From a virus: DNA of 64,000 nucleotides. The notes beneath the pieces are model-generated. The model made no database searches, had not been told where the DNA came from, and saw only the letters and a list, made by a program, of their open reading frames with translations. This document shows positions 7,397 through 58,832 of this stretch, piece after piece. The DNA lies in IMG/VR virus record IMGVR_UViG_3300024581_002882; one strand, 5' to 3'. How positions within the stretch are numbered: the first letter of the stretch is position 1; each line of letters starts with the position of its first letter. The translations under genes were made by a program, and so were the position numbers.

Positions 7397-7425
7397 TGTA
7401 CAATAATATAATTTTTAAAAACTTA

Positions 7426-11835: not shown

Positions 11836-13959
11836 ATGAGTAGAATTGATTTTTATAAAACATATTACGAGAATTTAACTCCATCTACTTTAAGCGTAAG
11901 CAAAAATGAAGATAAAATTCAAATAAGTGGTTTTGAAAATAAAAACAACCAATACTTTATGGAATCATACGAAAAGGGTGGAGAAACAGGTTTTAATCCT
12001 GATGGTGCTATAAAAGACAAGGTAGTCCATGCTTCAGGTAAAGCAGGGGGTATGCTTGTTGGTAAAAGACATAGTGAGGGCGGAATCAAAGCCATTAATA
12101 AATCTACAGGTCAGCCAATAGAAATGGAAGGTGGCGAAGTAGTTATTACACGAAACGCTGTATCTGACAATACTAAAAGAAGTTTTAACGGAAAAATGAT
12201 GACCAATCGTCAAATTCTTTCTGCAATCAATGAAAGTGGTGGTGGTGTTTCATTTGCAAATGGCGGTCAAGTTCCCAAAAATGTAACTTTTGACTGCAAT
12301 GCCGAGTATGAGTATGGCGGAAAAACCATGTGTGGAAAAGACTTAGCGAAAAGCATGGCTAAAGGTGGGGCTACTGATGATGATTTTAGCGATATAATTT
12401 CTGCTGTTCAGACAGTAGATGTTATGGAAGATGGGGGTGAAACTCCACAAGACACAGCTAAATTGATGCAAGAGGTTATTGATTTTGAAGGAAAAAACCC
12501 TTATAATTCATATTTATTTTTCTTTAATTCAAAGAATCCTTCTTTTAGTGAAATAAAAGGAGAATATGAAACAAAAGATGGTAGAATTTTAAAATTTAAA
12601 GCAAATACTTATTTTGAATTAATTTCTTATTTTAATAATATTTTAGATTATGGAAATACTAAAGTAGCTTTTTACAAAGGAAAGGAAATTGTTGGTTTTC
12701 CTATTGAAATTGATGATGAAATATATTTAGTAAGAATTTCAAACAAAGCGAGAAACAGTAAAAATATATTTAACCCAAAAACAGGTTCGCTTTACAATTT
12801 TTTAGTTCATCTTTATTTTAAAAATATAGAAGATTTTAAAAATAGTGAACTTTATAAAAAAGATTGGACTGAATTTATATTATATTCTGTTCCATCAAGC
12901 ACACAAACCACAGAAGAAGAAAGTAAAACAGAAACAGAAGTAAAAAGTAAAATAGATTACGATAAGCTAAAAAAGTATTTAAGAGCAAGAATAAACGCAT
13001 TATCTACTGAACTTAACATAAAGTCTGTTGCACTTTCTATTGATGAAATAGGAATTTACCAAAGAGAAATAAGAGAACTCATAACACGATACCGACAACT
13101 TCTTGAACAAGAAAGAGAAAATATATCGTTTTTAGATAGGCTAAAATCAGCTTATTCTGTAAAATGGGGTGATATAAATAAAAAATACACCCCTGCTGAT
13201 TTAGTTTCAATAAATGGCAAGAAAACAGAATTGACAGAGCAAGAATATCTTACGGTTAGAACTGAAAACTTTCAGTCATTCTTTGGAAATTGGGAAAAAG
13301 CCTATGAAACAAATAATTATACAGATGTTTCTAAGGTTATAAATGAAAAAACTAAAGAACCACTTGCTGTGTTTCATGGAACAAATGTTCTTTTTACAAA
13401 TTGGAAAACATACGAAACCAATAATGCTCACTATTTCACCAAAAAAAGAGAAATGGCAAACTTCTTTGCTACGTCTTGGGATTCAAGAGGGGATAAGGCA
13501 GGTGTAGATTCTCAAATTATAAAAAAACTTAATCCAAACAAAGGAGAATTTATATATAGATGTTTTCTTGATATTAAAAACCCTATTGATTTTTCAAGGT
13601 TTGGAGTAGAAAAAAGACCTGTTAAAGATTATCTTAATTTCTTAAAAATAAATTACAACATTCAGGATTTTGATTTTTGGAGTAATATAAACAAGGGGTT
13701 TGATGTAAAGCAAGAAACTTTGGTTTATGCGTGGCAAATAATTCGTGCATGGCAACAGTTTACGGTTTACGTTAAAATTTATACGCCCTATGATGGATAT
13801 ATTTTCTATGAGTTTATACCTGATTCTGCAAAGCAAGACATAAATGATGCTTCGCTTTCCTTTTGCACATTTGATAGTAACCAAGTGAAATTTGCTGATG
13901 CTGTTGAGTTTAACGCACTTTCAGACGATTCACGATTAAAATATGGTGGTTTATTATGA
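11836..13959 (+). CDS. polyvalent protein with xxGG motifs and a C-terminal ADP-ribosyltransferase-like (ART-PolyVal-type) domain
   Basis: VRTENFQSFFGNWE...SKVINEKTKEPLAVFHGT...HYFT...CFLDIKNP; N-terminal GKRHSEGGI...EMEGGEVVI; motifs YEKGG, FANGG, MAKGG, MEDGG, LKYGG. Confidence 0.7.
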   Translation: MSRIDFYKTYYENLTPSTLSVSKNEDKIQISGFENKNNQYFMESYEKGGETGFNPDGAIKDKVVHASGKAGGMLVGKRHSEGGIKAINKSTGQPIEMEGGEVVITRNAVSDNTKRSFNGKMMTNRQILSAINESGGGVSFANGGQVPKNVTFDCNAEYEYGGKTMCGKDLAKSMAKGGATDDDFSDIISAVQTVDVMEDGGETPQDTAKLMQEVIDFEGKNPYNSYLFFFNSKNPSFSEIKGEYETKDGRILKFKANTYFELISYFNNILDYGNTKVAFYKGKEIVGFPIEIDDEIYLVRISNKARNSKNIFNPKTGSLYNFLVHLYFKNIEDFKNSELYKKDWTEFILYSVPSSTQTTEEESKTETEVKSKIDYDKLKKYLRARINALSTELNIKSVALSIDEIGIYQREIRELITRYRQLLEQERENISFLDRLKSAYSVKWGDINKKYTPADLVSINGKKTELTEQEYLTVRTENFQSFFGNWEKAYETNNYTDVSKVINEKTKEPLAVFHGTNVLFTNWKTYETNNAHYFTKKREMANFFATSWDSRGDKAGVDSQIIKKLNPNKGEFIYRCFLDIKNPIDFSRFGVEKRPVKDYLNFLKINYNIQDFDFWSNINKGFDVKQETLVYAWQIIRAWQQFTVYVKIYTPYDGYIFYEFIPDSAKQDINDASLSFCTFDSNQVKFADAVEFNALSDDSRLKYGGLL

Positions 13960-15104
13960 TTATACAGGGAAACAATTTGAATATAAATCAAATAATGCAA
14001 AAGCTTTTTGGTGGGCAAACAAAAGTTAGCCAAGACCTTTCTAAGCTTAATCTTTTACCTACATATATTGATTTCGATAAGCTAAATGCTTTAAAATTTG
14101 TAAGTATTACAGAAAACACAAAAGATAAAGAGAGGGAAATTGTCGATATAAATATTACAAGCGAAAAGTACATGGGTATGTTTTCAATAAACGGTTTCAC
14201 TAAAGACGAACTTGTGGCTTTCATAGATGTTATTGGAGAAGATAAATCCGCATCTGACGAAAGGGTTTTTGAAAAAGAAAAGTCAATAGGCTACTTAGAT
14301 AATTTTACCGAACTCTTTTCAAAAGTAAATAACCTTTGGGAAGAATTTTCAGCAAAGTGGAATGAACTTCAAATGGAAGAACTTAAAAATGATTTAGATG
14401 AAAAGCAAGATAACCAAGAGCAAGAAACTGAATCAGAGCAAAGCCAAGAAGAACAAGAGCAACAAGACCAAGATGGAGACCAAGAAGGCGACCAAAACGG
14501 GGAAGAAGAACAAGATGGAGATGGAGATGGACAAGATGACAAAGGAGAGAAAGGCGAAAATGAAGGCGATAAAACAGACGATGGAAGCGATAGCGACAAT
14601 GGAGAGGAATCTGAAGAAGAAAACGCTTTAAAAGATTGGGTAAAAGAAAACTTTCCTGAACTTTTTGACAATAAAGAACCAAGTGGACAGTCTGAATATG
14701 GAGATGGCGATGACCTTGAAAAATTTATGGAACAAGTTGAAAAGGGTAATGTAGAAGGCGATTTTACCAATGAAGAAGAAAGGGAAAAAGCCAAAGAATT
14801 TATTGAAAGTGAAAGCGGTGATGGTGATGATGACTATGACGATGGTAAAAAGAAAAGAAAGCCACCAAAAATTGAAGATATTGAAATAAATGCCACACAA
14901 TTAATTGGGGCTTTATTAGGTGGATTAGATGAGGGGGAAGTCAAAAGACGTTTTCCAAATAAGCGTTCAGTAAATAACATTATTTCAAGTCTGACAAGAG
15001 ATGAAATTGAAGTGGGTAAAATGCTTATGAAATTAGAAGATATAAGTGTGCCACAGGCAAAAGACATTTTAAGAAAAAATTTAATAGAAGAATTAGAATT
15101 ATAA
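13956..15104 (+). CDS. hypothetical protein with a long acidic low-complexity linker
   Basis: D/E/Q/G-rich tract at about aa 145-300; directly upstream of the AAA+ gene. Confidence 0.7.
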   Translation: MIIQGNNLNINQIMQKLFGGQTKVSQDLSKLNLLPTYIDFDKLNALKFVSITENTKDKEREIVDINITSEKYMGMFSINGFTKDELVAFIDVIGEDKSASDERVFEKEKSIGYLDNFTELFSKVNNLWEEFSAKWNELQMEELKNDLDEKQDNQEQETESEQSQEEQEQQDQDGDQEGDQNGEEEQDGDGDGQDDKGEKGENEGDKTDDGSDSDNGEESEEENALKDWVKENFPELFDNKEPSGQSEYGDGDDLEKFMEQVEKGNVEGDFTNEEEREKAKEFIESESGDGDDDYDDGKKKRKPPKIEDIEINATQLIGALLGGLDEGEVKRRFPNKRSVNNIISSLTRDEIEVGKMLMKLEDISVPQAKDILRKNLIEELEL

Positions 15105-15107
15105 ACC

Positions 15108-16472
15108 ATGAAAAAAGAAGAACTATTAGAAATCATAAATAACCCTGATAATCCACAGGATATTATTAATGATGCACAGGAACAACTAAAAAAGTTGGAA
15201 GCCCTTGAAACAAGAGATGAAGCACAAGCTGTTGATAGCGATATTCAGTTTGCTGTTTCTGAATTTAGAAAATCTATTGATAAATTAGTTTCACAGGGAG
15301 TAGATAAAGGCGAAGTAACCAAAATTGTAGATGAAAGATTGGGTAAAGCTAAATTTGGTAAAAAGAATTTAGATGCCTCTGTTTTAGATTTAATTGGAAA
15401 AACCCAAACTGTACAAATTGTAAATTGGCAAAATGTTCCCGTTAAAACTTCCGATGGTAAAAAGCGTAAGATATTTGAACTTATTTTATCTGATTTAGAG
15501 GCAGGTAATAACGTATATCTTTACGGTGGTGCAGGAACAGGTAAAACTTTTATTGCAGGGCAAATCGCTAAGTCTATTAATTATAAACTTGTTACTCTTA
15601 ACTGTAACCAATTCACTTCTCCTTTAGATATAATAGGGGGTCAAACTATTGAGGGTTATCAAGAGGGGAGACTAACCGAAGCCTTTGGTAACTTGTTTTT
15701 GCCTGAAGTAAATCCTGCAACAGGAAAAGTTTATTCAGGTGCTGTTCTTCTATTAGACGAGTTGCCAAAACTTGACCCAAATACAGCAGGGGTGCTTAAC
15801 GATGGTTTATCTAAAATTAAAGACCCAATTGAAAAATCAGAGACAGGTGAAATTATACCACCTGTAATTACAAATGGTCGTGGACAACAAATACCAAAGA
15901 AAAACATATTTGTTATTGCAACGGGTAACTCTTTGTTAAATGAAGCTGATGTGGATTATGAAGCTAACTTTAAACAAGATTTGTCTTTACAAGACCGTTT
16001 TGCAGGAAGTACATACGAACTTATTATTGACCCACAATATGAATTAGACAACATTATGTCTAACATTAAGATTGAGGATAAAATTGCAAACTTTACTTTC
16101 ATCTTTAATTTCTTATTTAAACTTCGTGAAGCTGTAAACAGAAACAACTTCCAATCAAGGGCTTTTGTGTCTCAACGTCTCATGGTTTCGTTTAGAGATA
16201 CCTACATAGCTTATCGTTTAAATGAGCAAATGGGTACAAAAAAGATACCTAACCCAAAAACACTTGAAATTGCTACAAATACGTTCTTAGAGCTATTTAC
16301 AGAGCAACAAAGAGGAACTTTGGAAACGGAAGTAAATAAACAAGAGTTTTTTGATTTAATTAAAGTTAAAAACCAAAAACCACTTGATGAGTTAGATTCT
16401 CAAGAGGACAAAATGGAAGCAAATGCCTTAATAACAGCGTTTAACGAACAAAACAAAGACAAGATTAAATAA
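15108..16472 (+). CDS. MoxR/CbbQ/CobS-like AAA+ ATPase
   Basis: VYLYGGAGTGKT (Walker A), LLLDELPK (Walker B), VIATGNS (sensor 1), DLSLQDRF (Arg finger). Confidence 0.88.
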   Translation: MKKEELLEIINNPDNPQDIINDAQEQLKKLEALETRDEAQAVDSDIQFAVSEFRKSIDKLVSQGVDKGEVTKIVDERLGKAKFGKKNLDASVLDLIGKTQTVQIVNWQNVPVKTSDGKKRKIFELILSDLEAGNNVYLYGGAGTGKTFIAGQIAKSINYKLVTLNCNQFTSPLDIIGGQTIEGYQEGRLTEAFGNLFLPEVNPATGKVYSGAVLLLDELPKLDPNTAGVLNDGLSKIKDPIEKSETGEIIPPVITNGRGQQIPKKNIFVIATGNSLLNEADVDYEANFKQDLSLQDRFAGSTYELIIDPQYELDNIMSNIKIEDKIANFTFIFNFLFKLREAVNRNNFQSRAFVSQRLMVSFRDTYIAYRLNEQMGTKKIPNPKTLEIATNTFLELFTEQQRGTLETEVNKQEFFDLIKVKNQKPLDELDSQEDKMEANALITAFNEQNKDKIK

Positions 16473-18052
16473 TGCCAAGCCCTAACGGAAATAACACTTA
16501 TTTTCAATTTTCCTTTGACCCATATAAATGGATTGAAGAAGGAACTGCTATTGCAGAAAAAGAGGGCTTAGGTAAATCTGTTGAACTATCAAGGGTAACA
16601 AGAAATTCTGATAAACCAAGAGGCAAAGATTATAACAAGTATGGCTATAAAGCTGATAGCAATAGGTCAGTTGAAGAACAATTTGACTTAAATAGCGGAT
16701 TAGGTGCTTTTTTAGACCAAGACCTTTTAAATACAGTTGAATCTTTATACACCAACATAAATGCACAATTAGATTTAGGTGGAGATATAAAACCTGCCCG
16801 AATTAAATTTACAGACAAGCCTATTGGTGTTTTTGATTTTTCACAAGCATCTAAAGGGCTTATTAGACCTGTTGAATATTTTTCATTTGAAGATGATAAA
16901 ACAATAAATCCCGACCTTGTACAAAAAGGGGAACTTAACGGAAATGAATTTTATTATTACATGAAAAAAGAAAAACAGGTTGTTGTTGAAAGAAGGCAAG
17001 AGGGAACAACAGCAATAGCTAAAAACTGTGATAACGTTAAAGTTAAAAAGAATGAAAAATTAAAACTTTTTCTTCCATACAGAGATGGAGATGTATTGTT
17101 AAAATGTGGGGAATATAAATTAAGATTTACTTCAACCAACAAAAAGGTATATGCTGTAAGAGAAAAAAAAGGTGGCGGTATTGCACCTTATGTTGATTTG
17201 TATTTAGCCTGTGGAAACAATTGGAATCACGACCCTGAATCCATGCTTATTCAAATGATGCCAAATTTATTACTCGGAAGAATTTTAGAAAAAAGCGGTG
17301 TTCGTGTAAGGCTTTTTGGATTTTATGTTCAAGACATAAATTCTGATATTTATTTGAACTCCTTTTTTATGATGAAAAATTACGGAGAGCCAATAGATAT
17401 AAACAAAATTGCTGTCTTTACTTCTGATACAAGGTTTTTTAGATATTGGATGTGGAACGCAAAGCAGGGGTGGAACTACGAAATGACAAAACAAAGAACA
17501 TACGGTGGTTCTGATGGAAGTATGTATCAGCCCGAATCATGGACAAGAAATATAATGCCTATGGTAAGAAACTATGTATCTTATAAAATTCAAACAGGTG
17601 AATTTCCATCACAGGTTGTAAATAAAAGATTAATGCTTTTTGGTGGATTAAATTCTAATTCAGGCGAAAAACTTGATAGCCCCGAAACAGAACGCAAAAT
17701 AATTGATAAGTTTTATAAGCTGTTAGATTACATATCACTTCGCCTTTCAAATACACCTACACAGGTTATAAAAGATATTGTAAAGCGTGAAAGGGATAAC
17801 GGTAAAGACGATACGGATATTTTAAAAGATTTGAGAGATGCGATTACAGACATTTTAACTCCAACAAGAAGGCAGGAAAAAAGCATACAACAAATAAACG
17901 AGGAATATAAAAATGGCGAAATAATTAAAGAGTTTTACGAAAGGGCTATTGAAGTTAATAGCAAATTAGACACCGATGAAGAAATTAATGAAATTATAGA
18001 CGAAAGAATACGCTATGAAAACATAGCTAAAAAAGTTTTAGGTATATCATGA
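16472..18052 (+). CDS. probable VWA-like partner of the AAA+ ATPase
   Basis: TAATG-coupled to the AAA+ gene; VDLYLAC...LLLGRILEKSGVRVRLFG resembles degenerate VWA/CobT-like partners. Confidence 0.5.
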   Translation: MPSPNGNNTYFQFSFDPYKWIEEGTAIAEKEGLGKSVELSRVTRNSDKPRGKDYNKYGYKADSNRSVEEQFDLNSGLGAFLDQDLLNTVESLYTNINAQLDLGGDIKPARIKFTDKPIGVFDFSQASKGLIRPVEYFSFEDDKTINPDLVQKGELNGNEFYYYMKKEKQVVVERRQEGTTAIAKNCDNVKVKKNEKLKLFLPYRDGDVLLKCGEYKLRFTSTNKKVYAVREKKGGGIAPYVDLYLACGNNWNHDPESMLIQMMPNLLLGRILEKSGVRVRLFGFYVQDINSDIYLNSFFMMKNYGEPIDINKIAVFTSDTRFFRYWMWNAKQGWNYEMTKQRTYGGSDGSMYQPESWTRNIMPMVRNYVSYKIQTGEFPSQVVNKRLMLFGGLNSNSGEKLDSPETERKIIDKFYKLLDYISLRLSNTPTQVIKDIVKRERDNGKDDTDILKDLRDAITDILTPTRRQEKSIQQINEEYKNGEIIKEFYERAIEVNSKLDTDEEINEIIDERIRYENIAKKVLGIS

Positions 18053-18870
18053 ATTTAAGTAGATACATAGTAAAAAAGGGTAGCGGTGAGGCTTGTTATA
18101 TGTTAGGTAGAGTTTCTGAACTTTCTAACATTTATATTTCATTTATTTTCCCAATAGAAAGAAAACTTTATTTGGATAAAAACAAAGGCAGTTATTTTGT
18201 TGACCAAAACACGCTTTCTTCTTTTATTCAAAACATAAAGATTGTAATTGATAGAGATGAAAGTGATGCAATATCAAGAATTGCAGACTTAGATTTGTAC
18301 AATGAATTTGGGGTTGGTAGTGAAGTGCTATTTAACTTTAGAGGATATGTACACATAGGAAACCTTTTGAACACTTATGCTCAAATGAATTTACCTACTC
18401 CTATACTTTTTGACCCAACAAATCTCATCAACGATTACAGGTCATTGTTAGGCTCAAAACTTAAAGTTGGCGAAATAACAGATAAAATAAGAAAGTTTTT
18501 ATCTGATGGAAAATATAATGACGATTTCACAAATCCACTTATAAATCTTGCAGGTACTAAGCGTGAGGTTCAAGAGTTTTTAGAAGAACTTGAGCCACCT
18601 AAAACAAAAAGTGAATTAGAACTTCAATGGGCTTTGTACCAAAGCGATAAAGATGCTTTACCAAAAGCTGTTGAGGATATATTTATAAATTCTCTTTTAA
18701 CAAGTAGGGGAGAAAAAATAACAGAAATAACAGGAAAAAATGAGGACTTGTCAAAGTCATTTCAGGGTTTGTTGGTTGCCCTTAACAAATCAATAAATAG
18801 TAAATTAGAACAAACAGGGGGAGAAGATGAATTTGACTTCTTGTCCGAAATAGAAAACATAGAATTATAA
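18049..18870 (+). CDS. hypothetical protein
   Basis: 273-aa ORF in operon. Confidence 0.65.
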   Translation: MNLSRYIVKKGSGEACYMLGRVSELSNIYISFIFPIERKLYLDKNKGSYFVDQNTLSSFIQNIKIVIDRDESDAISRIADLDLYNEFGVGSEVLFNFRGYVHIGNLLNTYAQMNLPTPILFDPTNLINDYRSLLGSKLKVGEITDKIRKFLSDGKYNDDFTNPLINLAGTKREVQEFLEELEPPKTKSELELQWALYQSDKDALPKAVEDIFINSLLTSRGEKITEITGKNEDLSKSFQGLLVALNKSINSKLEQTGGEDEFDFLSEIENIEL

Positions 18871-18885
18871 ATTAAATAAATTAAA

Positions 18886-20817
18886 ATGGCACTTAAAAGT
18901 AAATTTGAGAGAATCGACCAATCCAAACTCAAGCAAGGTGCAAGAGATGTGTTGGCAAAAATGAAAGAGAAATCTGAAAACTTTACCAATGCAGAGGTAA
19001 ACAAAAAAATTGAACCTGCGATTGACAAACTAATCGAAAGGCTTAAAAAGGAAAACCCTGATGCACTAAAAAAGGCTTCGGCAACTCGAACCCGTAAACC
19101 AAAAGCAACAGCTAAAAAGAAAGCTACTAAAAAAGCACCTGCAAAAACAAGCGGTGCAAAGCGTGAAACTGTTATGACTGTTGCCAAGCGTATTCGTAAA
19201 GATGGCGAGAAGTGGCAAGATGCACTCAAAAGAGCAAAGTCTGAAATGGGTAAGGACACCAAAAAGAAAGTTAGTGCTGTTAAAACAGAGGTTGACAAGC
19301 TAAAAAAACTTATTGAAAAAGATGCTGTTTTAAAAGGGTTTGCTAACTCTGAACTACAAAGAGATGCTGTTCGCAAGGCAAAGCCAAGAGGGAAGCGTAA
19401 AACCACAACTAAAGGCGAAACTACTAACCAATATGGTACTTTTAAGAATAAAGTTGGTCGAACTTATTGGGAAAGTAGAGAGAATCGTTCTGATAGATAT
19501 GCACCTAAATATCCTAAGAATAAGCCATTTTTAGAAATGGGTGGAGATGTTACTGATGCTCAAGACTTGTCTATAGCAAATGCCGATTTTCTTGTAATGG
19601 CTAAAGGTGGTATGATAACATCTGCACCCGAATATCATAAGGTTAGAAATGCAGAGTATGACAGACGAGTTAAAAGTGGTAAAATAAAAGATACTGATGA
19701 AAACTTTGAAAAGTTTGATGAAATGTATTTTGATGAATTAGTCAAAAAGGGTAAGATAGATATTGATAATTATTTCGCTAAAGGTGGGGAGATTGATGCT
19801 TTCACAATGAGCATGGTAAAAGGTGTTGACGATGGTATTTCAGAAGTCGAAACCAAAGACCTAAAAGCCCGTATGGAAAAAGGTGGGAAACTTTATTATC
19901 AACAAGATGGGGTCGGAAAAGCAAAATACACTATTTCATATTATGATGGTAAAAAAACACATAAAGACGGAAGCCCTTTTTACGATATAGCAACTTTTAA
20001 AAACAAAAAAGACCTTAAATCATATATAGAAAAATTAGAATCAGAAGGTTATAAAAAAAGATTTGCTAAAGGTGGGGAGATTACCAAAACGGGCAATAAA
20101 GGTTCGGCTCGTTGGGAAATGAAAATTACTGATGAAGAAGGGAATACATCAAGTATCTATGCCGAAAAAAAATCTGATTTGCTACAATATAAAAAAATGT
20201 ACTTGGCTAAAGGTGGTACTTTAGAAAGTAAATTTGATGGCTATGAAACTATGTATAAATATGCTCTTGCAAACAATTTTACACCAAGACAATTAGCAGA
20301 AGAATTAAGATTTATGACTAATTTACAAAATAAAGGTGATAAAGAATTATATGATTTCCTAAATAATCTTTCTAATATGTTTCCTGACACTCCTATTTCT
20401 GAATTTAAAAAAGGTGGTTCAATCCCACAATCTGCAAAAGATGAATTTTATCAATTAAGATATGATGATGAAGATTTTGCAGACCAATATGGCGAAGATG
20501 ATTTGCAAGAATGGTATGAAGAACAAGGAAGATTTGCTAAAGGTGGTCGTTTAAAATCTGCTTTAATGCGTGATAGAAAATACTACAATAAAAATGAAGC
20601 TTGGGAACGTGCTTATAGCAAAGGTAAAAACCGTAGGGGCTACAAAGAAAATGGCGGTGTTATAGAAAACTCTATTCAAAGCTATCAAAACCACTACAAA
20701 GGTTTTCCAAGCTATGAAGATGGCGGTACAATAGCTGATTCAACGCAACACTTTAGAATTATGGAAACCGATACTCCTATTTACAAAGAGGGCGGTCAAA
20801 TAGATATGGATTTATAA
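18886..20817 (+). CDS. basic N-terminus plus a string of small modules separated by 11 xxGG motifs
   Basis: K/A/T-rich H1-like tract; LEMGG, MAKGG, FAKGG x3, MEKGG, LAKGG, FKKGG, KENGG, YEDGG, YKEGG. Confidence 0.8.
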   Translation: MALKSKFERIDQSKLKQGARDVLAKMKEKSENFTNAEVNKKIEPAIDKLIERLKKENPDALKKASATRTRKPKATAKKKATKKAPAKTSGAKRETVMTVAKRIRKDGEKWQDALKRAKSEMGKDTKKKVSAVKTEVDKLKKLIEKDAVLKGFANSELQRDAVRKAKPRGKRKTTTKGETTNQYGTFKNKVGRTYWESRENRSDRYAPKYPKNKPFLEMGGDVTDAQDLSIANADFLVMAKGGMITSAPEYHKVRNAEYDRRVKSGKIKDTDENFEKFDEMYFDELVKKGKIDIDNYFAKGGEIDAFTMSMVKGVDDGISEVETKDLKARMEKGGKLYYQQDGVGKAKYTISYYDGKKTHKDGSPFYDIATFKNKKDLKSYIEKLESEGYKKRFAKGGEITKTGNKGSARWEMKITDEEGNTSSIYAEKKSDLLQYKKMYLAKGGTLESKFDGYETMYKYALANNFTPRQLAEELRFMTNLQNKGDKELYDFLNNLSNMFPDTPISEFKKGGSIPQSAKDEFYQLRYDDEDFADQYGEDDLQEWYEEQGRFAKGGRLKSALMRDRKYYNKNEAWERAYSKGKNRRGYKENGGVIENSIQSYQNHYKGFPSYEDGGTIADSTQHFRIMETDTPIYKEGGQIDMDL

Positions 20818-20828
20818 AAAAAAGAAAC

Positions 20829-23531
20829 ATGAAGTACACACCTAAATACAAAATTAAAAGTGTAAAGTTTACACATAATGGAAAAGATTATGATGTAGAA
20901 GGCTCAAAAGTTCTTTCGGGGATTTATCAATATGCCAAAGGGGGAAAATTAGCCGATTACACTTATATACCAAAAAATAGAGTAAAAGAGTTTATAACAG
21001 ACGATGGTTCTGTTAAAAAACATTCAAATGGTGTTTGGGTGTTGTCAAGTGTTTTAAAATCCGCACCTACCAAAACAGCTAAAAAACCTGCCAAAGTCGG
21101 AAGTAAAACATCGCCAAAGTCGGAAGTTAAGAAAGGGGCTTTAGTACCACCATCTGTAAAGTATAAGGGTAAAAAGAATATGCCTGTTGATGCTTTTGAG
21201 GTTGCTGAAGAAATGGTGGCTATGAAAAAAGCTAAGGCAAAAATCAGTTCCATACGAAGTAAAACAATGCTTTTAGATATAGAACTACGAGACAATAAAG
21301 ATATGAAAGAGTGGCATGAACCATTGGCTTATACTGTTCTTTGGTATAACGCAAATATGCCCCTTAATTTAGCTTTTGAAATCTTAGGTAGGCAAGAATA
21401 CTATGGGGATGGTGTTATAAAAGCTTATAAAGAAGAATTTAAAAAAGCACCCGATGTAACAGGTAAAGTTTCTAAAATTAAAAGAGGAAGCTTTATGTCC
21501 AATAGTGCTGAACAAAAACTATCCAAAAGTTTTGTTTCAAAAGACACTTTAAGACCACAAATGATGCACACATACATAGACAATGGGTATGCTGTTTCTA
21601 CAAATGCACATATTTTATTGGCTATATATGATAAAACGTTGAAGGGAAAAGAAGAATTTTTAACAGACCCTAAAACAACAAGTAGCTATCCAAATTGGAG
21701 AGGGGTTGTTCCAAACACTTACTCCACTACAACTAAAAAAATAAATGCTCAAAGGCTTTATGACTTTTTGTTAAAGGCAAAAAAATACAACGCTTATGAC
21801 CCAACCGTAAAAGGAATTGTTATAAAAATAAATGATGACAATAATTTTGGATTTAACATAGATTACATAACACAATCTTTAAAAGCGATTATGTCTCTTG
21901 GCGATGATGTGTATATTCACTATCAAGACATGGTAACAAATCGTGCTGTAATTTTTACAAATATTGAAAATTGGGATTTAGACAAAGAAAATTCATCTTT
22001 TGCTCTAACCATGCCAATAATGGTTGACAGAACATACAGCGACTATATTTCCTATGACCTTGATGGAGATACAACTTTTGCTAAAGGTGGGAAAGTTTCT
22101 GATTTTGACAAACTTGCAAATAAAGTAGCAAAGCAATATAGTGGCAAAAAAGTTCCATCAAAGTACCGAAGCGAGTACGGAAAAATGTACAGCCCTGAAG
22201 AAGCACAAGAGGTAGGCAGAAAGGTTGCTTATAAAGTGATGATGATGCAAGAGGGAAAAAAGATGGCTAAAGGTGGAGATGTAGATTACAGATACTCATT
22301 AACAAATGATGTCCTTGAGGATATAATAGAAGAATTTGGCTCAAATGTTCAATATAGTAAATTAGACAGTTATACTGATGTTCATGGACAAAAGAGGGTT
22401 TTAGAAATTGTAAAAAATCGTTTAAAAGATGTTTACAATATAGATTCACAATTTCAGCCAAAGGGCAAAAGAATTGGTTTGAATGTATTAAGAGTTCCAA
22501 GCCAAGTTATTGAATACGCTAAAGGTGGTCGTACAATAAGCATAGTAAACGATGGTGTAAAATTTGACAAATCTAAATACAAAGCTGTATATGGAGATTT
22601 TGACAAAGATGGTACAGTAAATATTGACGATGCTAACCCACTTGATGCTACTAAAAATTCTAAGGTCGAGCAAGTCGAACTGAAAGACACTTTTGATAAG
22701 CTGTTAAGCGTAAAAGCTGAACTTGATGACATCATGTACGATGCTGTTGATACGCTTGACAAGAAAGCACCAAAAGATGCCGACATATATGCTCGTACAA
22801 AAACTCCATACTCTATTCTTAAAAAACTTGTAGAAAAAAGAATGTTAGACCCCAATAAAGGGCTTACAGATATGATTGGCACAACAATAGCTGTTGGAAA
22901 TCAAAAAGAACTTGAACAAGTTAGAGATGATATAGATGGTGGCTTGTTAGGTAAAGTCCTTGATAAAGACGATTACTATAAAAATCCAAAAGCAGGTTAT
23001 AGAGCATATCACTATATAGTAGAATATGATGGTGTACCTGTAGAAGTACAGCTTAAAACTAAGCGTATGAAAAAACTAAATGAGGTTTCTCATGATTTCT
23101 ATAAAAAGGGTACGTTAGATGCTAAAGGGCTTGATGCTGTTTCTAAAACATTTGAAAAAGCTGATAGAGGGGATAAAAAAGCACTTGCGGAAGTGAAAAA
23201 ACTTCTTTCCGACAAAAAAGCACTTGCATCTAAAATATCTACTTCTAAAATGGCTAAAGGCGGTGCAATAAAAGAACTTCGTAAAGAAAAGGATATTGAT
23301 ATTTATGAAAATGTTATGGAAATGGGTGGCGATGTAACAGATAGTCAAGACCTTACCATTGCAAACTCTGATAACCTTGTTATGAAAAAAGGTGGTAAAA
23401 CAAAGAAAAGAAAAACGGGAACTAAAAAGCCCAATAGCTTCTTTGCTGTTGTTAAGAGAAACCAAAGAAAAGGTGAAGCGTGGAAAGATGCAATCCAAAG
23501 AGTAAAAAAAGAAATGTCTAAAAACAAATAA
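20829..23531 (+). CDS. polyvalent protein: beta-clamp-like domain plus RelA/SpoT-like nucleotidyltransferase, delimited by 7 xxGG motifs
   Basis: clamp-like FVSKDTLRP...VSTNAHIL..YPNWRGVVP..GFNIDYI..LTMPI; RelA-like ARTKTPYSILKK..LTDMIG..DDYYKNPKAGYRAYH..VEVQLKT..HDFYK. Confidence 0.8.
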   Translation: MKYTPKYKIKSVKFTHNGKDYDVEGSKVLSGIYQYAKGGKLADYTYIPKNRVKEFITDDGSVKKHSNGVWVLSSVLKSAPTKTAKKPAKVGSKTSPKSEVKKGALVPPSVKYKGKKNMPVDAFEVAEEMVAMKKAKAKISSIRSKTMLLDIELRDNKDMKEWHEPLAYTVLWYNANMPLNLAFEILGRQEYYGDGVIKAYKEEFKKAPDVTGKVSKIKRGSFMSNSAEQKLSKSFVSKDTLRPQMMHTYIDNGYAVSTNAHILLAIYDKTLKGKEEFLTDPKTTSSYPNWRGVVPNTYSTTTKKINAQRLYDFLLKAKKYNAYDPTVKGIVIKINDDNNFGFNIDYITQSLKAIMSLGDDVYIHYQDMVTNRAVIFTNIENWDLDKENSSFALTMPIMVDRTYSDYISYDLDGDTTFAKGGKVSDFDKLANKVAKQYSGKKVPSKYRSEYGKMYSPEEAQEVGRKVAYKVMMMQEGKKMAKGGDVDYRYSLTNDVLEDIIEEFGSNVQYSKLDSYTDVHGQKRVLEIVKNRLKDVYNIDSQFQPKGKRIGLNVLRVPSQVIEYAKGGRTISIVNDGVKFDKSKYKAVYGDFDKDGTVNIDDANPLDATKNSKVEQVELKDTFDKLLSVKAELDDIMYDAVDTLDKKAPKDADIYARTKTPYSILKKLVEKRMLDPNKGLTDMIGTTIAVGNQKELEQVRDDIDGGLLGKVLDKDDYYKNPKAGYRAYHYIVEYDGVPVEVQLKTKRMKKLNEVSHDFYKKGTLDAKGLDAVSKTFEKADRGDKKALAEVKKLLSDKKALASKISTSKMAKGGAIKELRKEKDIDIYENVMEMGGDVTDSQDLTIANSDNLVMKKGGKTKKRKTGTKKPNSFFAVVKRNQRKGEAWKDAIQRVKKEMSKNK

Positions 23532-27115: not shown

Positions 27116-27501
27116 TGATTATTTCGGGTAACATAAAAGATAACACAGGTGAGCCTTTAATGGGTGCAAACATCTATGCAACGCTTTCTTCGGGGGGCAA
27201 GATTGGTGGAATATCTGATTTTGATGGAAATTTTAATATAGATTTAGGAGACAAAGAACTTTCAAGCCCTGTAACTATATCTTATTTAGGTTTTAAAAGC
27301 AAAACATTTGAACCCTCACAGCTAAATAACGCAAATGTAGTTCTTAGTGAAGGGGAAGAAATGTTAGACGAAGTTGTTGTAATAGCAAAAAAAAAACCAA
27401 AAAGTAAAAAGGGAATAGAAAAAAATAACCTAATAGGCATTGCGAGTTTAGGTGTAGGTGTCTTAGCTTTAGGGATAATTTTAGTAAATATTAAAAAATA
27501 A
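27115..27501 (+). CDS. carboxypeptidase-regulatory-like (SusC N-terminal type) domain with C-terminal TM
   Basis: ISGNIKDNTGEPLMGANI...SDFDGNF...ISYLGF...L.E..EMLDEVVV. Confidence 0.85.
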   Translation: MIISGNIKDNTGEPLMGANIYATLSSGGKIGGISDFDGNFNIDLGDKELSSPVTISYLGFKSKTFEPSQLNNANVVLSEGEEMLDEVVVIAKKKPKSKKGIEKNNLIGIASLGVGVLALGIILVNIKK

Positions 27502-27839
27502 TGGAAAATCAAGCTACAAATCAAGGTGCAGAAACTAATGGTGCTGAAGCAGTATCAACTCAAGACACAGCAGGGGTGGTAGAAAATACCAACCCATCTG
27601 AAACCTCATCAAACTTTGAGGAAGGCGGAGAGTTAAAAAAGGGCGGAGAATATAGCCTTGTTTATCTTTTAACCTTTGCTCTTTTGATTTCAGCTTCTGC
27701 ATATAGCATTTACTATCATCGTCAAGCCATGAATAAGCTAATGGATGATGACAACGATGAACTAAAAAGACAAGTTAGAGAAGTGAAAACAAATCTTAAA
27801 AAATTGATGGGAAATAAGTATGAAATTATCTCTAAATAA
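27501..27839 (+). CDS. single-pass membrane protein
   Basis: acidic N-terminus with FEEGG/LKKGG, TM, short coiled coil. Confidence 0.7.
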   Translation: MENQATNQGAETNGAEAVSTQDTAGVVENTNPSETSSNFEEGGELKKGGEYSLVYLLTFALLISASAYSIYYHRQAMNKLMDDDNDELKRQVREVKTNLKKLMGNKYEIISK

Positions 27840-35335: not shown

Positions 35336-35599
35336 ATGGAGAAATCAGCTAATCAGCTTTGGAGAGAAAGCGGAACTTCTCTTTCTTTTAAGGATTGGAT
35401 TCAAAGAGAGAAAGATAAAGGAGTACAAATTAAAAATAAACTTCTCGAAGATGTGGTTGGTTCTGTAAAAGAAACTAATCAAAAAGACACAAATACAATA
35501 AAAAGATTTGATTTTGGAGTGCCAAAGTGGGTTATTTACACAGGTGCTTCGGTTTTAACTTTTGCTATTGTATATAAATTATATAAAGCCAAAAAATGA
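35336..35599 (+). CDS. C-terminally anchored membrane protein
   Basis: TM plus YKLYKAKK. Confidence 0.7.
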   Translation: MEKSANQLWRESGTSLSFKDWIQREKDKGVQIKNKLLEDVVGSVKETNQKDTNTIKRFDFGVPKWVIYTGASVLTFAIVYKLYKAKK

Positions 35600-36384
35600 A
35601 CCTAAGAGTAACAACGAGATATGAAGAACTTTCGTTGGCTGTTTACGTTCAAACCCTTACTCCTTGTAAAATAAGAATTAAGGTTTTTGATGCGGAACAA
35701 CCAAAAACTGTTTTTACAGACAGGTATAAAACCGTAAAAGGAAGCGAAGTTTTTTATGTTCGTATGCCTTTAAGTTCAAATCAGGTTATTGTAAGCGTTT
35801 ACAATGAAGCTGTAGGCAACAGACGTAAAGGAGAGGACAGTAGCTTTACCATAACACAGGTAAAGAAATTGCCTTTAGAAAAAAGAACAGATGTGGGGGA
35901 TATTCGTGATTATACGGTTTCCTCTTTTGTGGATTTTGCACAAAGGTTTTCTTTTAACGCATCTTATTTAGATGCTGATAAAACCTATCAGAGTTCAAGT
36001 GGTGAATTTCTTATTGAGTATTTACCATACATAACAAGTTCTAAAACGGGTCAAAAATTAAAAACACCTGCCCGTATTTCTAAGGTAAATGGTAGGATTC
36101 AGGTTTCAAAAGAAGCCTTTGATAACTATACTGTGCCTATGCGTATGGCTATTTTGCTACATGAGTTTTCTCATTTTTATCTAAATGATAATATGGATGA
36201 CGAAGTAGAGGCTGACCTTAATGGGCTTTTAATTTATTTAGGGTTGGGTTATCCTCGAATTGAGGGTTATCAAGCGTTTTTAGAAGTGTTTCAGGACACA
36301 CCTTCGCAACAAAATAAAAACCGTTATGATATAATTAATAAGTTCATAAGGGATTTTGAAAAGAATAAAATGGTAATGAACTAA
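35596..36384 (+). CDS. zincin metalloprotease (HExxH plus downstream E) with N-terminal beta domain
   Basis: AILLHEFSHF...DEVEADLNG, an M48/gluzincin-like arrangement. Confidence 0.8.
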   Translation: MNLRVTTRYEELSLAVYVQTLTPCKIRIKVFDAEQPKTVFTDRYKTVKGSEVFYVRMPLSSNQVIVSVYNEAVGNRRKGEDSSFTITQVKKLPLEKRTDVGDIRDYTVSSFVDFAQRFSFNASYLDADKTYQSSSGEFLIEYLPYITSSKTGQKLKTPARISKVNGRIQVSKEAFDNYTVPMRMAILLHEFSHFYLNDNMDDEVEADLNGLLIYLGLGYPRIEGYQAFLEVFQDTPSQQNKNRYDIINKFIRDFEKNKMVMN

Positions 36385-55595: not shown

Positions 55596-56711
55596 ATGAG
55601 TTACGCAGAAAGCATATCGTTAAAATTAGTGAATAACACTTCTGTTGACCAACCTATTGGTTTGCTTGGGGGTACATCTTCTACATACGCAAACGCCAAT
55701 AATACGGTTTTAGTACAATGGGATTTAGCAACAGAAACGTTTGCGGGTAATCAGGTTACGCTAAATACCACAACACCTATAACAAGGGATTTGTTGGGGC
55801 AAAACATATCAGGTCTTGTTAAAACCCTAAACACCATGAATGTGGCTACTTTTACGTTTGAGGGTACAACGGTCTATGCAAGTGCCTTGTTAGACAATAG
55901 TGTTGAAACAGCCGATATGATTATTGATTTGGCAGATGGTACTTGGAATATTTCAGGGTATTCTTTATCTCAAACAGACCCTTATGCTTCAGGTCAAATT
56001 CAAGATTGGTTTATTTCTCATGATGGAAATTGGCTATTTATATCAAATGTTTCTGTAAATCAACTTCAAAAGTTCCCAATAACAACCGCTTGGGATATGA
56101 GTACGCTTAGTGGGTTTGCTTCACAAGTTAATACGGGTATTCTCTCAAGATTTACATTTGCAGATGAGGGTAACTATTTGTATCAACAAATAGGTGCTAC
56201 ATTGCAACGATTCCCTTTAGTTGCACCTTATGATATTAGCACTACCATACAAGACCAAAGTGGCTCTGTTACAAGTGGTACAATGGAATTTAGCCCTGAT
56301 GGAACTAAAGTGTTTTCAACAGGCGGAACTGCGGTTCTTCAGTATAGCTTATCAGCACCATTTGATGTTACAGCTTCATCATTTATAAATACAACTGATG
56401 TTTTAACAATGGGAATAACGCTACCTGCAAACGCCTTTTTAAGAAGCTTAACATTTAGCCCTGATGGAACTAAATTGATGATTTTTGCATCAAAAACCTC
56501 ATCAGCTTTTGTTTCATTTACATATCAATGTACTTGCTCAACACCATTTGACCCATCAACAGCAACGTATGATGGTGTATCAGTTGATACAACAGGTACT
56601 TCTCCAAATTATGGCGGACATTTTAAAGCCGATGGAAGTTTATTTGTAAACATCTATCTTCAGGGAAGTATTGGAAGTTCAATTATTAAAGAATTTAGAA
56701 CATTCAGCTAA
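55596..56711 (+). CDS. spike/receptor-binding protein 2 (same N-domain plus a different beta-propeller)
   Basis: first 60 nt identical to 54110; blades ISHDGNWLF, FSPDGTKVF, FSPDGTKLM. Confidence 0.7.
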   Translation: MSYAESISLKLVNNTSVDQPIGLLGGTSSTYANANNTVLVQWDLATETFAGNQVTLNTTTPITRDLLGQNISGLVKTLNTMNVATFTFEGTTVYASALLDNSVETADMIIDLADGTWNISGYSLSQTDPYASGQIQDWFISHDGNWLFISNVSVNQLQKFPITTAWDMSTLSGFASQVNTGILSRFTFADEGNYLYQQIGATLQRFPLVAPYDISTTIQDQSGSVTSGTMEFSPDGTKVFSTGGTAVLQYSLSAPFDVTASSFINTTDVLTMGITLPANAFLRSLTFSPDGTKLMIFASKTSSAFVSFTYQCTCSTPFDPSTATYDGVSVDTTGTSPNYGGHFKADGSLFVNIYLQGSIGSSIIKEFRTFS

Positions 56712-57508
56712 ATTTCATCATCAATATCCAATGATTTTGTCAGATTTGTATAAAGGGGGTTTTTCCCAACCATTTTTCCTCGTATCAAATTTACATTGTC
56801 CGATTCGTCAACTACTATATAGTCTCCGCCCTCAACATGGTCGTCAAGAGAAATAGCTTTTTGTAGCTTTAAATCTTCTTTAGGAAGCGTTTTAGATAGC
56901 TGTTTAAGTACAATTTTTTTTATCATCCAATGCTGTGGGTCTTTGCTGTCATTAAAGTAAAGATGATTTGGTGTTTTTTGCATCTTAATTATTTCAGAAA
57001 TCTCACTTCTACTTAAAACCTTAAAAACAGTTTCGCCACCCTCTAATTTAACACAGGCGTACACATATTTAATAAACTCTGATTTTTTTACAGCTTTGTC
57101 GCTTGGTATATGTGTGAGTTTTGGATTTAACCCTAACTCATATTCAAAATCATCGCCATCGTAAACTACCTCTGTCCAAATATTTTTAATCTTATTGCTT
57201 CTATAAAGGAGTGTGATAAGCCCTTTGTAGCCTATAATTGGAGTGATTATGTTTTTAAAAGGTATAAAATAAAACTCCCCAACGAGTTCGCTTGGATTTA
57301 GCCCCAACTCGGCACAATGCAGAATAGAAGCAAATAAAGAGGCAGGGTTTTTTTGAAAAGCACTCTGAAGCTGTGGACTACGCTTTAGTTCGGTAATCAT
57401 AATTTGCTTAAATTTTGCAGGACTTATAGAACCATCAAGCAATTCAGTGAAATTTTGTTTTTCGTATTTTTCTATTGTATTTTGGAAGTTTGTAATTAGT
57501 TCTTTCAT
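56708..57508 (-). CDS. recT: RecT-family ssDNA annealing protein
   Basis: PASLFASILHCAELGLNP...YFIPF....IIGYKGLITL.YRS...EVVYDGDDFEYELG...M.KK.VLKQL.KTLP. Confidence 0.92.
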   Translation of the reverse strand: MKELITNFQNTIEKYEKQNFTELLDGSISPAKFKQIMITELKRSPQLQSAFQKNPASLFASILHCAELGLNPSELVGEFYFIPFKNIITPIIGYKGLITLLYRSNKIKNIWTEVVYDGDDFEYELGLNPKLTHIPSDKAVKKSEFIKYVYACVKLEGGETVFKVLSRSEISEIIKMQKTPNHLYFNDSKDPQHWMIKKIVLKQLSKTLPKEDLKLQKAISLDDHVEGGDYIVVDESDNVNLIRGKMVGKNPLYTNLTKSLDIDDEI

Positions 57509-57527
57509 TTTAATTTGATTTACACAG

Positions 57528-57752
57528 TTAATTTATTTTTTTTACATCAAGACGAAGCCAATCGGAAATTATTTTTGTTTTAATCTTTATTTCTTTATCT
57601 ATTGCACGAATTTCACACAATATTTTTCTACCATCTTTTTTTGACAGCTTTTCAGAAAACATAAAGTCCTCTAAACTTTTCTTATATCTTTCAAGTGCTA
57701 AAACACACAATTCATGCTTGTGCATTTTTGCACTTACTTTCTCTAAGCACAT
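57528..57752 (-). CDS. hypothetical protein
   Basis: 74-aa ORF in operon. Confidence 0.5.
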   Translation of the reverse strand: MCLEKVSAKMHKHELCVLALERYKKSLEDFMFSEKLSKKDGRKILCEIRAIDKEIKIKTKIISDWLRLDVKKIN

Positions 57753-58546: not shown

Positions 58547-58832
58547 CGTTTCTTGTTTTAAATTCTGATTCTTCCATCCAACCATCTGTGCTATAATCCT
58601 CTCCTACCCAAATGTATTGTTTACCTAATCTTTTTCTTTTAGAAACACCACGAATAGGCATTTCAATCCTCACATCTTCAAGCTGTGTAAAGTCTATTGC
58701 GTTTGTTTTCTCATTAAGTTGATTTAACATTCTATCAGCTTCTTCTTTGCTGTATGCTTCCATTATTACAGGCTTTTTCTTACCAATGAAATAAAACTTA
58801 TAAAACTTTATTTTAGGCTTATTCCATTCCAT
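58539..58832 (-). CDS. hypothetical protein
   Basis: 97-aa ORF. Confidence 0.6.
   Translation of the reverse strand: MEWNKPKIKFYKFYFIGKKKPVIMEAYSKEEADRMLNQLNEKTNAIDFTQLEDVRIEMPIRGVSKRKRLGKQYIWVGEDYSTDGWMEESEFKTRNDV

What the first reader, a model, noticed from the sequence alone, without database searches (positions are those of the whole stretch)
11836..23531. About 25 copies of a (F/Y/M/L)xxGGx(I/L/V/T) motif divide three large proteins into modules: possible protease-processed polyproteins
Seen: 11 copies in 18886-20817, 7 in 20829-23531 and about 6-7 in 11836-13959, plus copies in 27501 and at the C-terminus of 60626. In the 900-aa protein the motifs fall on domain boundaries: YAKGG (about 20931) and FAKGG (about 22077) enclose the clamp-like region, and YAKGG (about 22515) and MAKGG (about 23250) enclose the RelA-like domain. 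Established: adenovirus protease cleaves (M/I/L)xGG|x and ASFV S273R cleaves GG|x polyproteins. Inference: these are cleavage sites releasing many small effectors from packaged precursors, or a repeated packaging/docking tag.
Basis: partly seen in the sequence, partly recalled or inferred. Interest (0 to 1): 0.88.

Follow-up and report, generated by a model that had tools for sequence, protein, structure and literature searches.

The report
Gly-Gly junction motif in phage effector polyproteins
Three large proteins of an uncultured bacterial virus are strings of swappable mini-domains, each joined by the same seven-residue Gly-Gly signal; the signal is real and under protein-level selection, is probably a protease cutting site, but cutting has not been shown.

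Summary
The motif [FYML]xxGGx[ILVT] occurs 6, 10 and 7 times in the three genes. That is 10.2 per 1000 aa, against 0.68 in the rest of the window and about 0.14 per protein in shuffles.

About 270 metagenomic homologues carry it at the same density. Cutting them at the motif gives modules of constant length that recur in many orders. Near relatives differ by whole cassettes, with DNA breakpoints 4-17 nt from the Gly codons. The RelA-like module is framed by the motif in 95 of 117 unrelated architectures.

Selection acts on the protein, not the DNA. Against an orthologue, motif codons change synonymously as often as other codons, but change amino acid 3.6-fold less. Proline is excluded from the free positions of the core.

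These are polyvalent proteins in the sense of Iyer et al. 2017. The junction motif was not found in that paper or in a search for the motif strings.

Cleavage is plausible but unproven (about 0.45). No adenain/Ulp1-like protease was found. The best candidate is a lineage-wide M48-like zincin at 35596-36384.

This scan noted the same motif earlier on other DNA; those are AI notes, not publications.

The parts
11836..13959 (+). Polyvalent protein 1 (707 aa). The N-terminal 200 aa are cut into small pieces by the motif, followed by a 504-aa segment ending in an ART-PolyVal ADP-ribosyltransferase domain. The motif starts at nt 11968, 12253, 12307, 12355, 12424 and 13936; the last copy, LKYGGLL, is followed directly by the stop codon.
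   Evidence: Translation. Pfam PF18760, E 2e-8, aa 508-689. Motif list. The orthologues in L001 and L003 also end with the motif plus stop.
18886..20817 (+). Polyvalent protein 2 (643 aa). It has a conserved Lys-rich N-terminal module c0 (aa 1-220), then ten small cassettes of 22-67 aa. The motif starts at nt 19531, 19597, 19774, 19873, 20062, 20203, 20404, 20533, 20713 and 20782, with a near-match at about 20644.
   Evidence: c0 is N-terminal in all 71 homologues that have it. The middle cassettes differ between relatives that are 94-99% identical in the shared parts.
20829..23531 (+). Polyvalent protein 3 (900 aa). Its modules are 39 aa, 382 aa (PHROG 6615 match, a family annotated as DNA polymerase), 62 aa, 84 aa, 245 aa (RelA/SpoT-like), 22 aa, 22 aa and a 44-aa basic tail. 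The motif starts at nt 20931, 22077, 22263, 22515, 23250, 23316 and 23382.
   Evidence: The RelA module boundaries coincide with the motif in 95 of 117 internal occurrences in other proteins.
35596..36384 (+). Candidate processing protease (262 aa): an N-terminal beta-sandwich (aa 1-96) and a C-terminal M48-like zincin domain (aa about 124-257) with HEFSH (189-193) and EVEAD (203-207).
   Evidence: AF2 pLDDT 92, pTM 0.90. Best structural matches of the C-terminal domain: BepA 6sar_A Z 8.7, 3c37 Z 6.8, Ste24 4il3 Z 6.7, ZMPSTE24 Z 6.3. H189, E190, H193, E203, A206 and D207 are invariant in 121 sequences. 1398 homologues. Present in every long contig that carries motif-rich arrays. That it cuts the motif is inference.
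13956..18870 (+). Conserved genes interleaved with the polyvalent genes: a 382-aa protein, a MoxR/CobS-like AAA+ ATPase (15108-16472), a 526-aa protein and a 273-aa protein. Their role is unknown and they carry essentially no motif.
   Evidence: Pfam AAA_5/AAA, PHROG 249. The same gene order is found in L001 and L003. Motif counts are 0-1.
56708..58585 (-). RecT-family annealing protein (56708-57508) and a weak PD-(D/E)XK nuclease match (57752-58585): a possible virus-encoded recombination system that could drive cassette exchange.
   Evidence: Pfam RecT E 1e-32; PDDEXK_1 E 0.006, below the curated cut-off. The link to cassette shuffling is inference.
60626..61513 (-). A 295-aa protein with one canonical copy of the motif (FEKGGKL) four residues from its C-terminus.
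   Evidence: A single copy, so significance is uncertain.
27501..27839 (+). A 112-aa protein with one copy (FEEGGEL) followed by KKGGEY.
   Evidence: A single copy, so significance is uncertain.

Best explanation
The three genes encode polyvalent (multi-effector) proteins built from autonomous cassettes. Every junction carries the same peptide signal: an aromatic residue, Met or Leu; then Ala or Glu; one free residue; Gly-Gly; one free residue; then Ile, Val, Leu or Thr; then a non-hydrophobic residue.

Shown:
- The signal marks module boundaries.
- It is kept by selection on the protein, not on the DNA.
- It is where relatives gain, lose and swap cassettes.

Inferred, and my preferred mechanism: the signal is the recognition site of a processing protease. 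The protease would cut the precursors into their modules after they are made as one chain, in the particle or on entry. One carrier module, such as the always N-terminal Lys-rich module c0, could then bring many small effectors along. The best candidate enzyme is the lineage's conserved M48-like zinc metalloprotease at 35596-36384.

On this reading, cassette shuffling at the junctions is a consequence. Any in-frame join at a junction yields a working array because the modules act independently.

The confidence given is for cleavage. The structural reading, a junction signal in modular polyvalent proteins, I hold at about 0.95.
For: Enrichment is 15-fold over the rest of the window and about 50-fold over shuffles. 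It is repeated in the same three genes of two related genomes.

The logo is 7 residues long with nothing conserved outside it. In 1619 unique contexts, Pro is absent from the free positions -2, -1 and +3 (0.0-0.1x background). It is enriched just outside, at -6, -5 and +5 (2.0-2.6x). Position +5 avoids hydrophobic residues. This is the pattern of a peptide bound in extended form in a groove.

Against orthologue L001, motif codons differ synonymously at 27.5% (22.5% elsewhere) but in amino acid at 4.4% (15.9% elsewhere).

Modules cut at the motif have fixed lengths and many different neighbours. Cluster c7, for example, is 32-35 aa long, with 18 different left and 12 different right neighbours.

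The RelA module is framed by the motif in 95 of 117 internal cases. In several stand-alone versions the start Met falls on the GG position.

Many modules are conserved peptides of 19-40 aa with no hydrophobic core. That fits released peptides better than folded domains.

The zincin has an intact catalytic signature and an M48-like fold. It is present in all 11 long IMG/VR contigs with motif-rich RelA arrays. It is absent from two complete phages whose RelA homologue stands alone without the motif.

The other peptidase-like genes of the window are not conserved in relatives that carry 18-26 motif copies: CHAP/DUF2272 in 0 of 20, the LRAT-like gene in 7 of 20.

Processing of polyvalent proteins by zincins was already proposed on other grounds (PMC5512222).
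Against: There is no direct evidence of cleavage or of packaging.

The co-occurrence of zincin and motif is confounded by shared descent, since it concerns one virus lineage.

From memory, M48 peptidases are not known for Gly-Gly specificity. The scissile bond cannot be placed.

In protein 1 the last motif is followed by only two residues. In protein 2 it is followed by six. Cutting there would release almost nothing.

The -1 residue flips from Lys here to Asp or Asn in more distant relatives. A recognition pocket would have to tolerate that change or co-evolve with it.

The AF2 model of protein 2 was too poor (pLDDT 44.5) to show whether the sites are exposed.
Confidence: 0.45

Rival explanations
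1. The motif is not cut. It is a docking or handling signal, or a fixed hinge, recognised by a virion, packaging or chaperone partner. Examples would be the capsid interior or the neighbouring MoxR-type ATPase system. Many copies would give avidity, or would let the chain be threaded module by module.
For: The same evidence for a recognised extended peptide applies. Complete motif copies at or near C-termini (GGLL-stop; GGQIDMDL-stop) make more sense as tags than as cleavage sites. A MoxR-like ATPase and partners are always interleaved with the polyvalent genes.
Against: A tag need not sit at every module boundary. Only about 10% of 250 homologues have a motif within 12 residues of the C-terminus. 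No partner with a known peptide-binding domain was identified.
Confidence: 0.28
2. The motif is only a recombination connector. A short conserved DNA word lets the virus's own RecT system exchange cassettes in frame, and the peptide has no function of its own.
For: DNA breakpoints between the window and L001 lie 4-17 nt from the first Gly codon. The c7 cassette is 94.8% identical inside flanks that are 84% identical. The Ala codon in the motif is GCT in 19 of 25 cases, against 33 of 86 AK dipeptides elsewhere. RecT is encoded at 56708-57508. An earlier scan note on a related genome read it this way (e1-5324824).
Against: Motif codons diverge synonymously as fast as other codons, while amino-acid change is suppressed. 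In more distant relatives the codons vary freely (TTC GCA GAT GGC GGA; TAT GCT AAT GGT GGT...) but the peptide pattern stays. Avoidance of GGA at the first Gly holds for all GG dipeptides in the window (1 of 131), so it is not specific to the motif.
Confidence: 0.07
3. The sites are cut by an adenain/Ulp1-like or other Gly-Gly-specific cysteine protease, as in adenovirus and ASFV. The enzyme would be encoded outside the window or supplied by the host.
For: The GG core and a nearby hydrophobic residue resemble (M/I/L)xGG|x (established knowledge). Relatives have inverted terminal repeats, as protein-primed viruses do.
Against: No C5, C48, C39 or OTU hit in about 75 of 90 window ORFs. The hydrophobic residue is one position further from GG than in adenain sites. 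The only cysteine-peptidase-like genes are absent from most relatives with large arrays.
Confidence: 0.05

Closest known systems
Polyvalent proteins of phages and conjugative elements (Iyer, Burroughs, Anand, de Souza, Aravind 2017, PMC5512222)
   Same: Large multi-domain proteins that combine anti-host domains. Here these are ART-PolyVal and RelA/SpoT, with ArdA, zeta-toxin and Eco57I-type domains in homologues. Architectures are extremely variable, and processing by a zincin peptidase is proposed.
   Different: That paper's text holds no mention of a linker, glycine or GG motif. Here every junction carries one defined 7-8-residue signal. Many modules are only 19-70 aa. The zincin is a separate M48-like gene among genes for small membrane proteins, not an MPTase domain within the chain.
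Adenovirus adenain and ASFV pS273R precursor processing
   Same: Virion precursor proteins are cut at Gly-Gly sites that have a nearby hydrophobic residue. The polyprotein strategy is used by a DNA virus.
   Different: Those enzymes are clan CE cysteine proteases, and none was found here. Their hydrophobic residue is at P4, whereas here it is one position further out. Cleavage here is not shown.
T4 gp21 and phiKZ gp175 head maturation, with capsid-targeting sequences on internal proteins
   Same: Cargo proteins are loaded into the head as precursors and trimmed by a virion protease at a short consensus. A terminal carrier segment is used.
   Different: Those proteases are of another class (serine, prohead type) and use other motifs (LxE; S/A/G-x-E). 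Those precursors are not long arrays of swappable modules.
M48 zinc metallopeptidases (BepA, HtpX, Ste24/ZMPSTE24)
   Same: The protein at 35596-36384 shares the catalytic-domain fold (Z 8.7 to 6.3) and the HExxH plus ExxAD signature.
   Different: It is soluble, with an N-terminal beta-sandwich. The Pfam M48 score is below threshold (12.8 bits against 20.3). It has no TPR or membrane domains, and its substrates are unknown.

Membership tests
Polyvalent proteins (Iyer et al. 2017) | Several unrelated effector-type domains in one polypeptide of a phage or mobile element, including signature domains of the class | tested here: met
   ART-PolyVal PF18760 in protein 1 and RelA_SpoT PF04607 in protein 3. 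Homologues add ArdA, zeta toxin, Eco57I and PF18905.
Polyvalent proteins (Iyer et al. 2017) | Highly variable domain architecture between related elements | tested here: met
   The homologues yield 414 module clusters, with many different neighbours per module. Close relatives differ by cassettes.
Polyvalent proteins (Iyer et al. 2017) | Delivered into the host together with the DNA (packaged or escorted) | not testable with these tools
   No virion proteome exists, since there is no cultured relative: tblastn of protein 3 against 50,697 phage records gave no match.
Polyvalent proteins (Iyer et al. 2017) | Zincin (MPTase) domain within the polypeptide as the predicted processing enzyme | tested here: not met
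   No peptidase domain was found in the three proteins. A zincin is encoded separately at 35596-36384.
Adenain/Ulp1-type (clan CE) processed precursors | A clan CE cysteine protease encoded by the virus | tested here: inconclusive
   No Pfam hit in about 75 of 90 window ORFs. About 14 kb of the roughly 78-kb genome lies outside the window, and divergent enzymes could be missed.
Adenain/Ulp1-type (clan CE) processed precursors | Site consensus (M/I/L)-x-G-G|x, with the hydrophobic residue at P4 | tested here: not met
   Here the hydrophobic residue is three residues before the first Gly, which is P5 if the cut follows GG.
Peptidase M48 | HExxH zinc site with a downstream Glu (ExxAD; recalled from memory for Ste24/HtpX) | tested here: met
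   H189, E190, H193, E203, A206 and D207 are invariant in 121 sequences.
Peptidase M48 | Catalytic-domain fold | tested here: met
   The best VIA-align matches of the C-terminal domain are BepA (Z 8.7, 117 residues aligned), 3c37, Ste24 and ZMPSTE24. The Z values are moderate.
Peptidase M48 | Score above the Pfam gathering threshold | tested here: not met
   PF01435: E 0.11, 12.8 bits against a cut-off of 20.3. It is therefore called M48-like, not a member.
Double-glycine leader peptides / C39 peptidase export | A single N-terminal leader ending in GG, and a C39 peptidase-ABC transporter | tested here: not met
   The motifs are internal and repeated, and no C39 or ABC transporter was found in the window (Pfam calls above).

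The most novel reading that the evidence does not exclude
A widespread, uncultured lineage of bacterial viruses makes its anti-host arsenal as polyproteins. The genomes are 60-102 kb, several with inverted terminal repeats and lipid-handling genes. A virion M48-like metalloprotease would cut the polyproteins at [FYM]-A-x-G-G sites into dozens of small effectors and peptides. That would be a polyprotein strategy not described for prokaryotic dsDNA viruses, and convergent with adenovirus and ASFV core maturation.
Probability: 0.3. Interest if true: 0.85.

Novelty: new variant of a known kind. Interest (0 to 1): 0.62.

Why it matters
If the junctions are cleavage sites, one short motif would let the borders of hundreds of unknown small phage effectors be read straight from sequence. 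In the homologues collected here that gave 414 module clusters, most without any family. It would also identify a protease and site pair usable as a tool.

Even if the junctions are not cut, the motif is a practical parser for polyvalent proteins. It is also a clear case of Lego-like protein evolution that can be studied by comparing near-identical metagenomic relatives.

The question is directly testable by co-expression, or by re-searching marine metaproteomes for peptides that begin or end at the motif.

Tried and rejected
- **Complex prediction.** The zincin (alignment A3) with Zn and protein 2 residues 284-318 gave no verdict (score 0.01). It is not evidence either way.
- **AF2 of protein 2.** With eight collinear homologues the model was poor (pLDDT 44.5). 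All 11 GG sites fall in predicted coil between secondary-structure elements, but Gly-Gly predicts coil anyway, so this was not used.
- **Fragment alignment A1.** A MAFFT alignment of module fragments meant to deepen that model misaligned the fragments and was dropped.
- **Gapped BLAST of whole proteins.** It chained through the repeated motif and gave uninformative boundaries. Module clustering replaced it.
- **Public phage collections.** Protein 2 found nothing in IMG/VR by pattern scan. Protein 3 found nothing in the phage collection.
- **Whole genome.** None is held for the window, and ENA loci cannot be searched as whole records.
- **Other searches that gave nothing:** PDB sequence searches, NCBIfam, PHROGs on structural candidates and the ESM Atlas.
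- **Foldseek on the whole zincin model.** The N-terminal beta-sandwich dominated the hits.
- **Codon bias at the first Gly.** GGT is preferred and GGA is absent there, which looked like DNA-level conservation. It proved to be a window-wide codon-pair effect.
- **Ideas considered and dropped without a test:** internal translation starts at MAKGG (most copies have F or Y), a Shine-Dalgarno-like role for AAAGGTGG, and 2A-like skipping.

Full report
**What is there**

The window is AT-rich (about 31% G+C). Almost all its genes lie on one strand up to about 56.7 kb. Its own contig is about 77.8 kb.

The finding concerns three ORFs: 11836-13959 (707 aa), 18886-20817 (643 aa) and 20829-23531 (900 aa).
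- Pfam finds ART-PolyVal (PF18760) in the first and RelA_SpoT in the third.
- These are signature domains of the polyvalent proteins described by Iyer et al. 2017 (PMC5512222).
- The second protein has no family at all.

The pattern [FYML]xxGGx[ILVT] occurs 6, 10 and 7 times in the three proteins. That is 10.2 per 1000 aa.
- The other 87 ORFs of the window hold 12 loose matches in 17755 aa (0.68 per 1000).
- Shuffles give 0.12-0.16 per protein.
- In two related metagenomic genomes the motif is confined to the same three genes. L001 is 84-87% identical in DNA; L003 is more distant.

**It is general**

A search with the 643-aa protein returned 120 proteins with patchy, mosaic coverage and different Pfam content: ArdA, RelA, zeta toxin, Eco57I and PF18905. 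They carry 961 motif copies in 95 kaa.

A logo built from every GG dipeptide in them, not pre-filtered, gives [FYML]-[AE]-[KD]-G-G-x-[IVLT]. Nothing is conserved outside these seven positions.

**The motif delimits autonomous, shuffled modules**

Cutting all 123 proteins after each motif gave 1170 segments in 414 clusters.
- 61% of significant pairs match end to end.
- Modules have almost fixed lengths: 28, 27, 32-35, 59-61, 67-69 aa.
- They recur with many different neighbours.

Relatives that are 94-99% identical to the 643-aa protein in the shared parts keep the N-terminal 240 aa and the C-terminal 90 aa. They carry different cassettes in between, joined exactly at AKGG.

At DNA level, the ends of homology between the window and L001 lie 4-17 nt from the first Gly codon. 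One 33-aa cassette is 94.8% identical inside flanks that are 84% identical.

The exhaustive search with the 900-aa protein found 1057 relatives. Among 147 of the listed representatives retrieved for analysis, 141 carry the RelA-like module.
- 95 of 117 internal module starts have the motif within 6 residues, 75 of them within 1.
- 69 of 84 internal ends are followed by a motif within 25 residues.
- 15 proteins start with the module, and in several the start Met falls on the GG position.

**Protein-level selection, not DNA-level**

In orthologous codons of the window and L001, motif codons differ synonymously in 27.5% of cases, against 22.5% elsewhere. They differ in amino acid in 4.4%, against 15.9% elsewhere.

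In more distant relatives with giant arrays (2267-2781 aa, 18-26 motifs) the codons vary freely. The consensus there shifts to [FY]A[DN]GG.

The apparent codon bias at the first Gly is shared by all GG dipeptides of the window: GGA is used in 1 of 131. Only the Ala codon shows a modest motif-specific bias. The motif is therefore not merely a recombination word, although recombination does happen at it.

**It looks like a recognised peptide**

In 1619 unique contexts:
- Proline is absent from the unconstrained core positions (-2, -1, +3).
- Proline is enriched just outside the core, at -6, -5 and +5.
- Position +5 avoids hydrophobic residues.

A passive linker would not show this.

Many modules are conserved peptides of 19-40 aa rich in Pro, Gly, Gln and Asn.

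**Search for a protease**

Pfam scans of about 75 of 90 ORFs found no adenain, Ulp1, C39, OTU or prohead protease. Three peptidase-like genes exist.

(a) 35596-36384 is the best candidate.
- The AF2 model is confident (pLDDT 92).
- It shows a beta-sandwich plus a zincin domain whose best structural matches are M48 peptidases: BepA Z 8.7, Ste24 Z 6.7, ZMPSTE24 Z 6.3.
- HExxH and ExxAD are invariant in 121 sequences.
- It has 1398 homologues of constant length.
- It occurs in 72 IMG/VR contigs, mostly of 35-102 kb.

(b) 53400-53861 has an NCEHF motif and a C-terminal membrane helix (LRAT/PLAAT-like). It is found in 7 of 20 relatives.

(c) 62713-63381 is DUF2272/CHAP-like and sits next to a peptidoglycan-binding protein. 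It is found in 0 of 20 relatives.

Relatives with 25-26 motif copies lack (b) and (c) but have (a).

Of the 15 IMG/VR contigs found through the RelA module:
- 11 carry the zincin, among them all the motif-rich arrays found.
- Two complete phages with direct terminal repeats (92.7 and 242.6 kb) have a stand-alone RelA homologue, no canonical motif and no zincin.

This association fits the zincin as the enzyme, but it is confounded by common descent.

**Verdict**

The structural reading is secure: a junction signal in modular polyvalent proteins.

The functional reading is inferred: processing sites, probably for the M48-like zincin. I put cleavage at about 0.45, an uncleaved docking or hinge signal at about 0.28, and a pure recombination connector at about 0.07.

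The adenovirus/ASFV analogy is only loose, because the protease class differs and the hydrophobic residue is offset by one position.

**Prior record**

Iyer et al. 2017 propose zincin processing of polyvalent proteins. Their text holds no hit for linker, glycine or GG motif. The literal motif strings are not found in any phage paper of the library.

This scan had already noted the same junction motif on other genomes (e1-5324824, e1-3279085, e1-5381433, e1-3475747). First readers had flagged the homologous zincin in related windows. Those are AI notes. I re-tested cassette exchange at the motif here and confirm it. I did not find the junction to be kept identical at DNA level in this lineage.

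Noticed in passing
IMG/VR relatives G002, G011, G018, G019, G021 (loci L006, L039, L070, L071, L107): IMG/VR classes several 63-84-kb relatives that carry the zincin as having inverted terminal repeats. That suggests protein-primed replication in this lineage. The 20 records chosen for long contigs (66-102 kb) are rated up to 100% complete.
   Followed up: no
window 27820-28470, 39269-39754, 41586-42149, 53400-53861: The window holds a cluster of lipid- or membrane-related genes: a PAP2 phosphatase, an annexin-repeat protein, a LEA_2 protein, and an LRAT/PLAAT-like NCEHF protein with a C-terminal membrane helix. Nearly all structural candidates lack any PHROG or Pfam match.
   Followed up: partly
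window 30585-31397: This 270-aa P-loop ATPase matches only the ATPase part of a PHROG terminase family (E 4.5e-7). No portal, large terminase nuclease domain or HK97 capsid protein was detected in the window.
   Followed up: partly
window 42853-48504 and 48507-50099: An 1883-aa Gly-rich protein and a 530-aa protein both end in a Peptidase_S74 intramolecular-chaperone domain, as fibre or spike proteins do.
   Followed up: no
window 19522-19611 versus 23307-23396; and about 19170-19254 versus about 23430-23519: Proteins 2 and 3 share two segments in swapped order. The FLEMGG-DVTDAQDLSIANADFLVMAKGG unit lies near the N-terminus of protein 2 and near the C-terminus of protein 3. The RKDGEKWQDALKRAKSEM helix does the same. 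This suggests a circularly permuted carrier module.
   Followed up: partly
loci L112, L113, L114 (giant ORFs of 2781, 2267 and 2575 aa): In more distant relatives the junction consensus is [FY]A[DN]GG instead of [FYM]AKGG, so the charge at -1 is reversed. The change is lineage-wide. It points to co-evolution with a trans-acting reader or to concerted evolution of the junctions.
   Followed up: partly
window 7345-9095: The virus encodes a PAS histidine kinase followed by a stand-alone receiver domain. The pair is conserved in relative L001.
   Followed up: no
whole window: GG dipeptides almost never use GGA for the first Gly (1 of 131 outside the three genes). This presumably avoids GGAGG.
   Followed up: yes
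Neither has any family match. A terminal-protein role was not tested.
   Followed up: no
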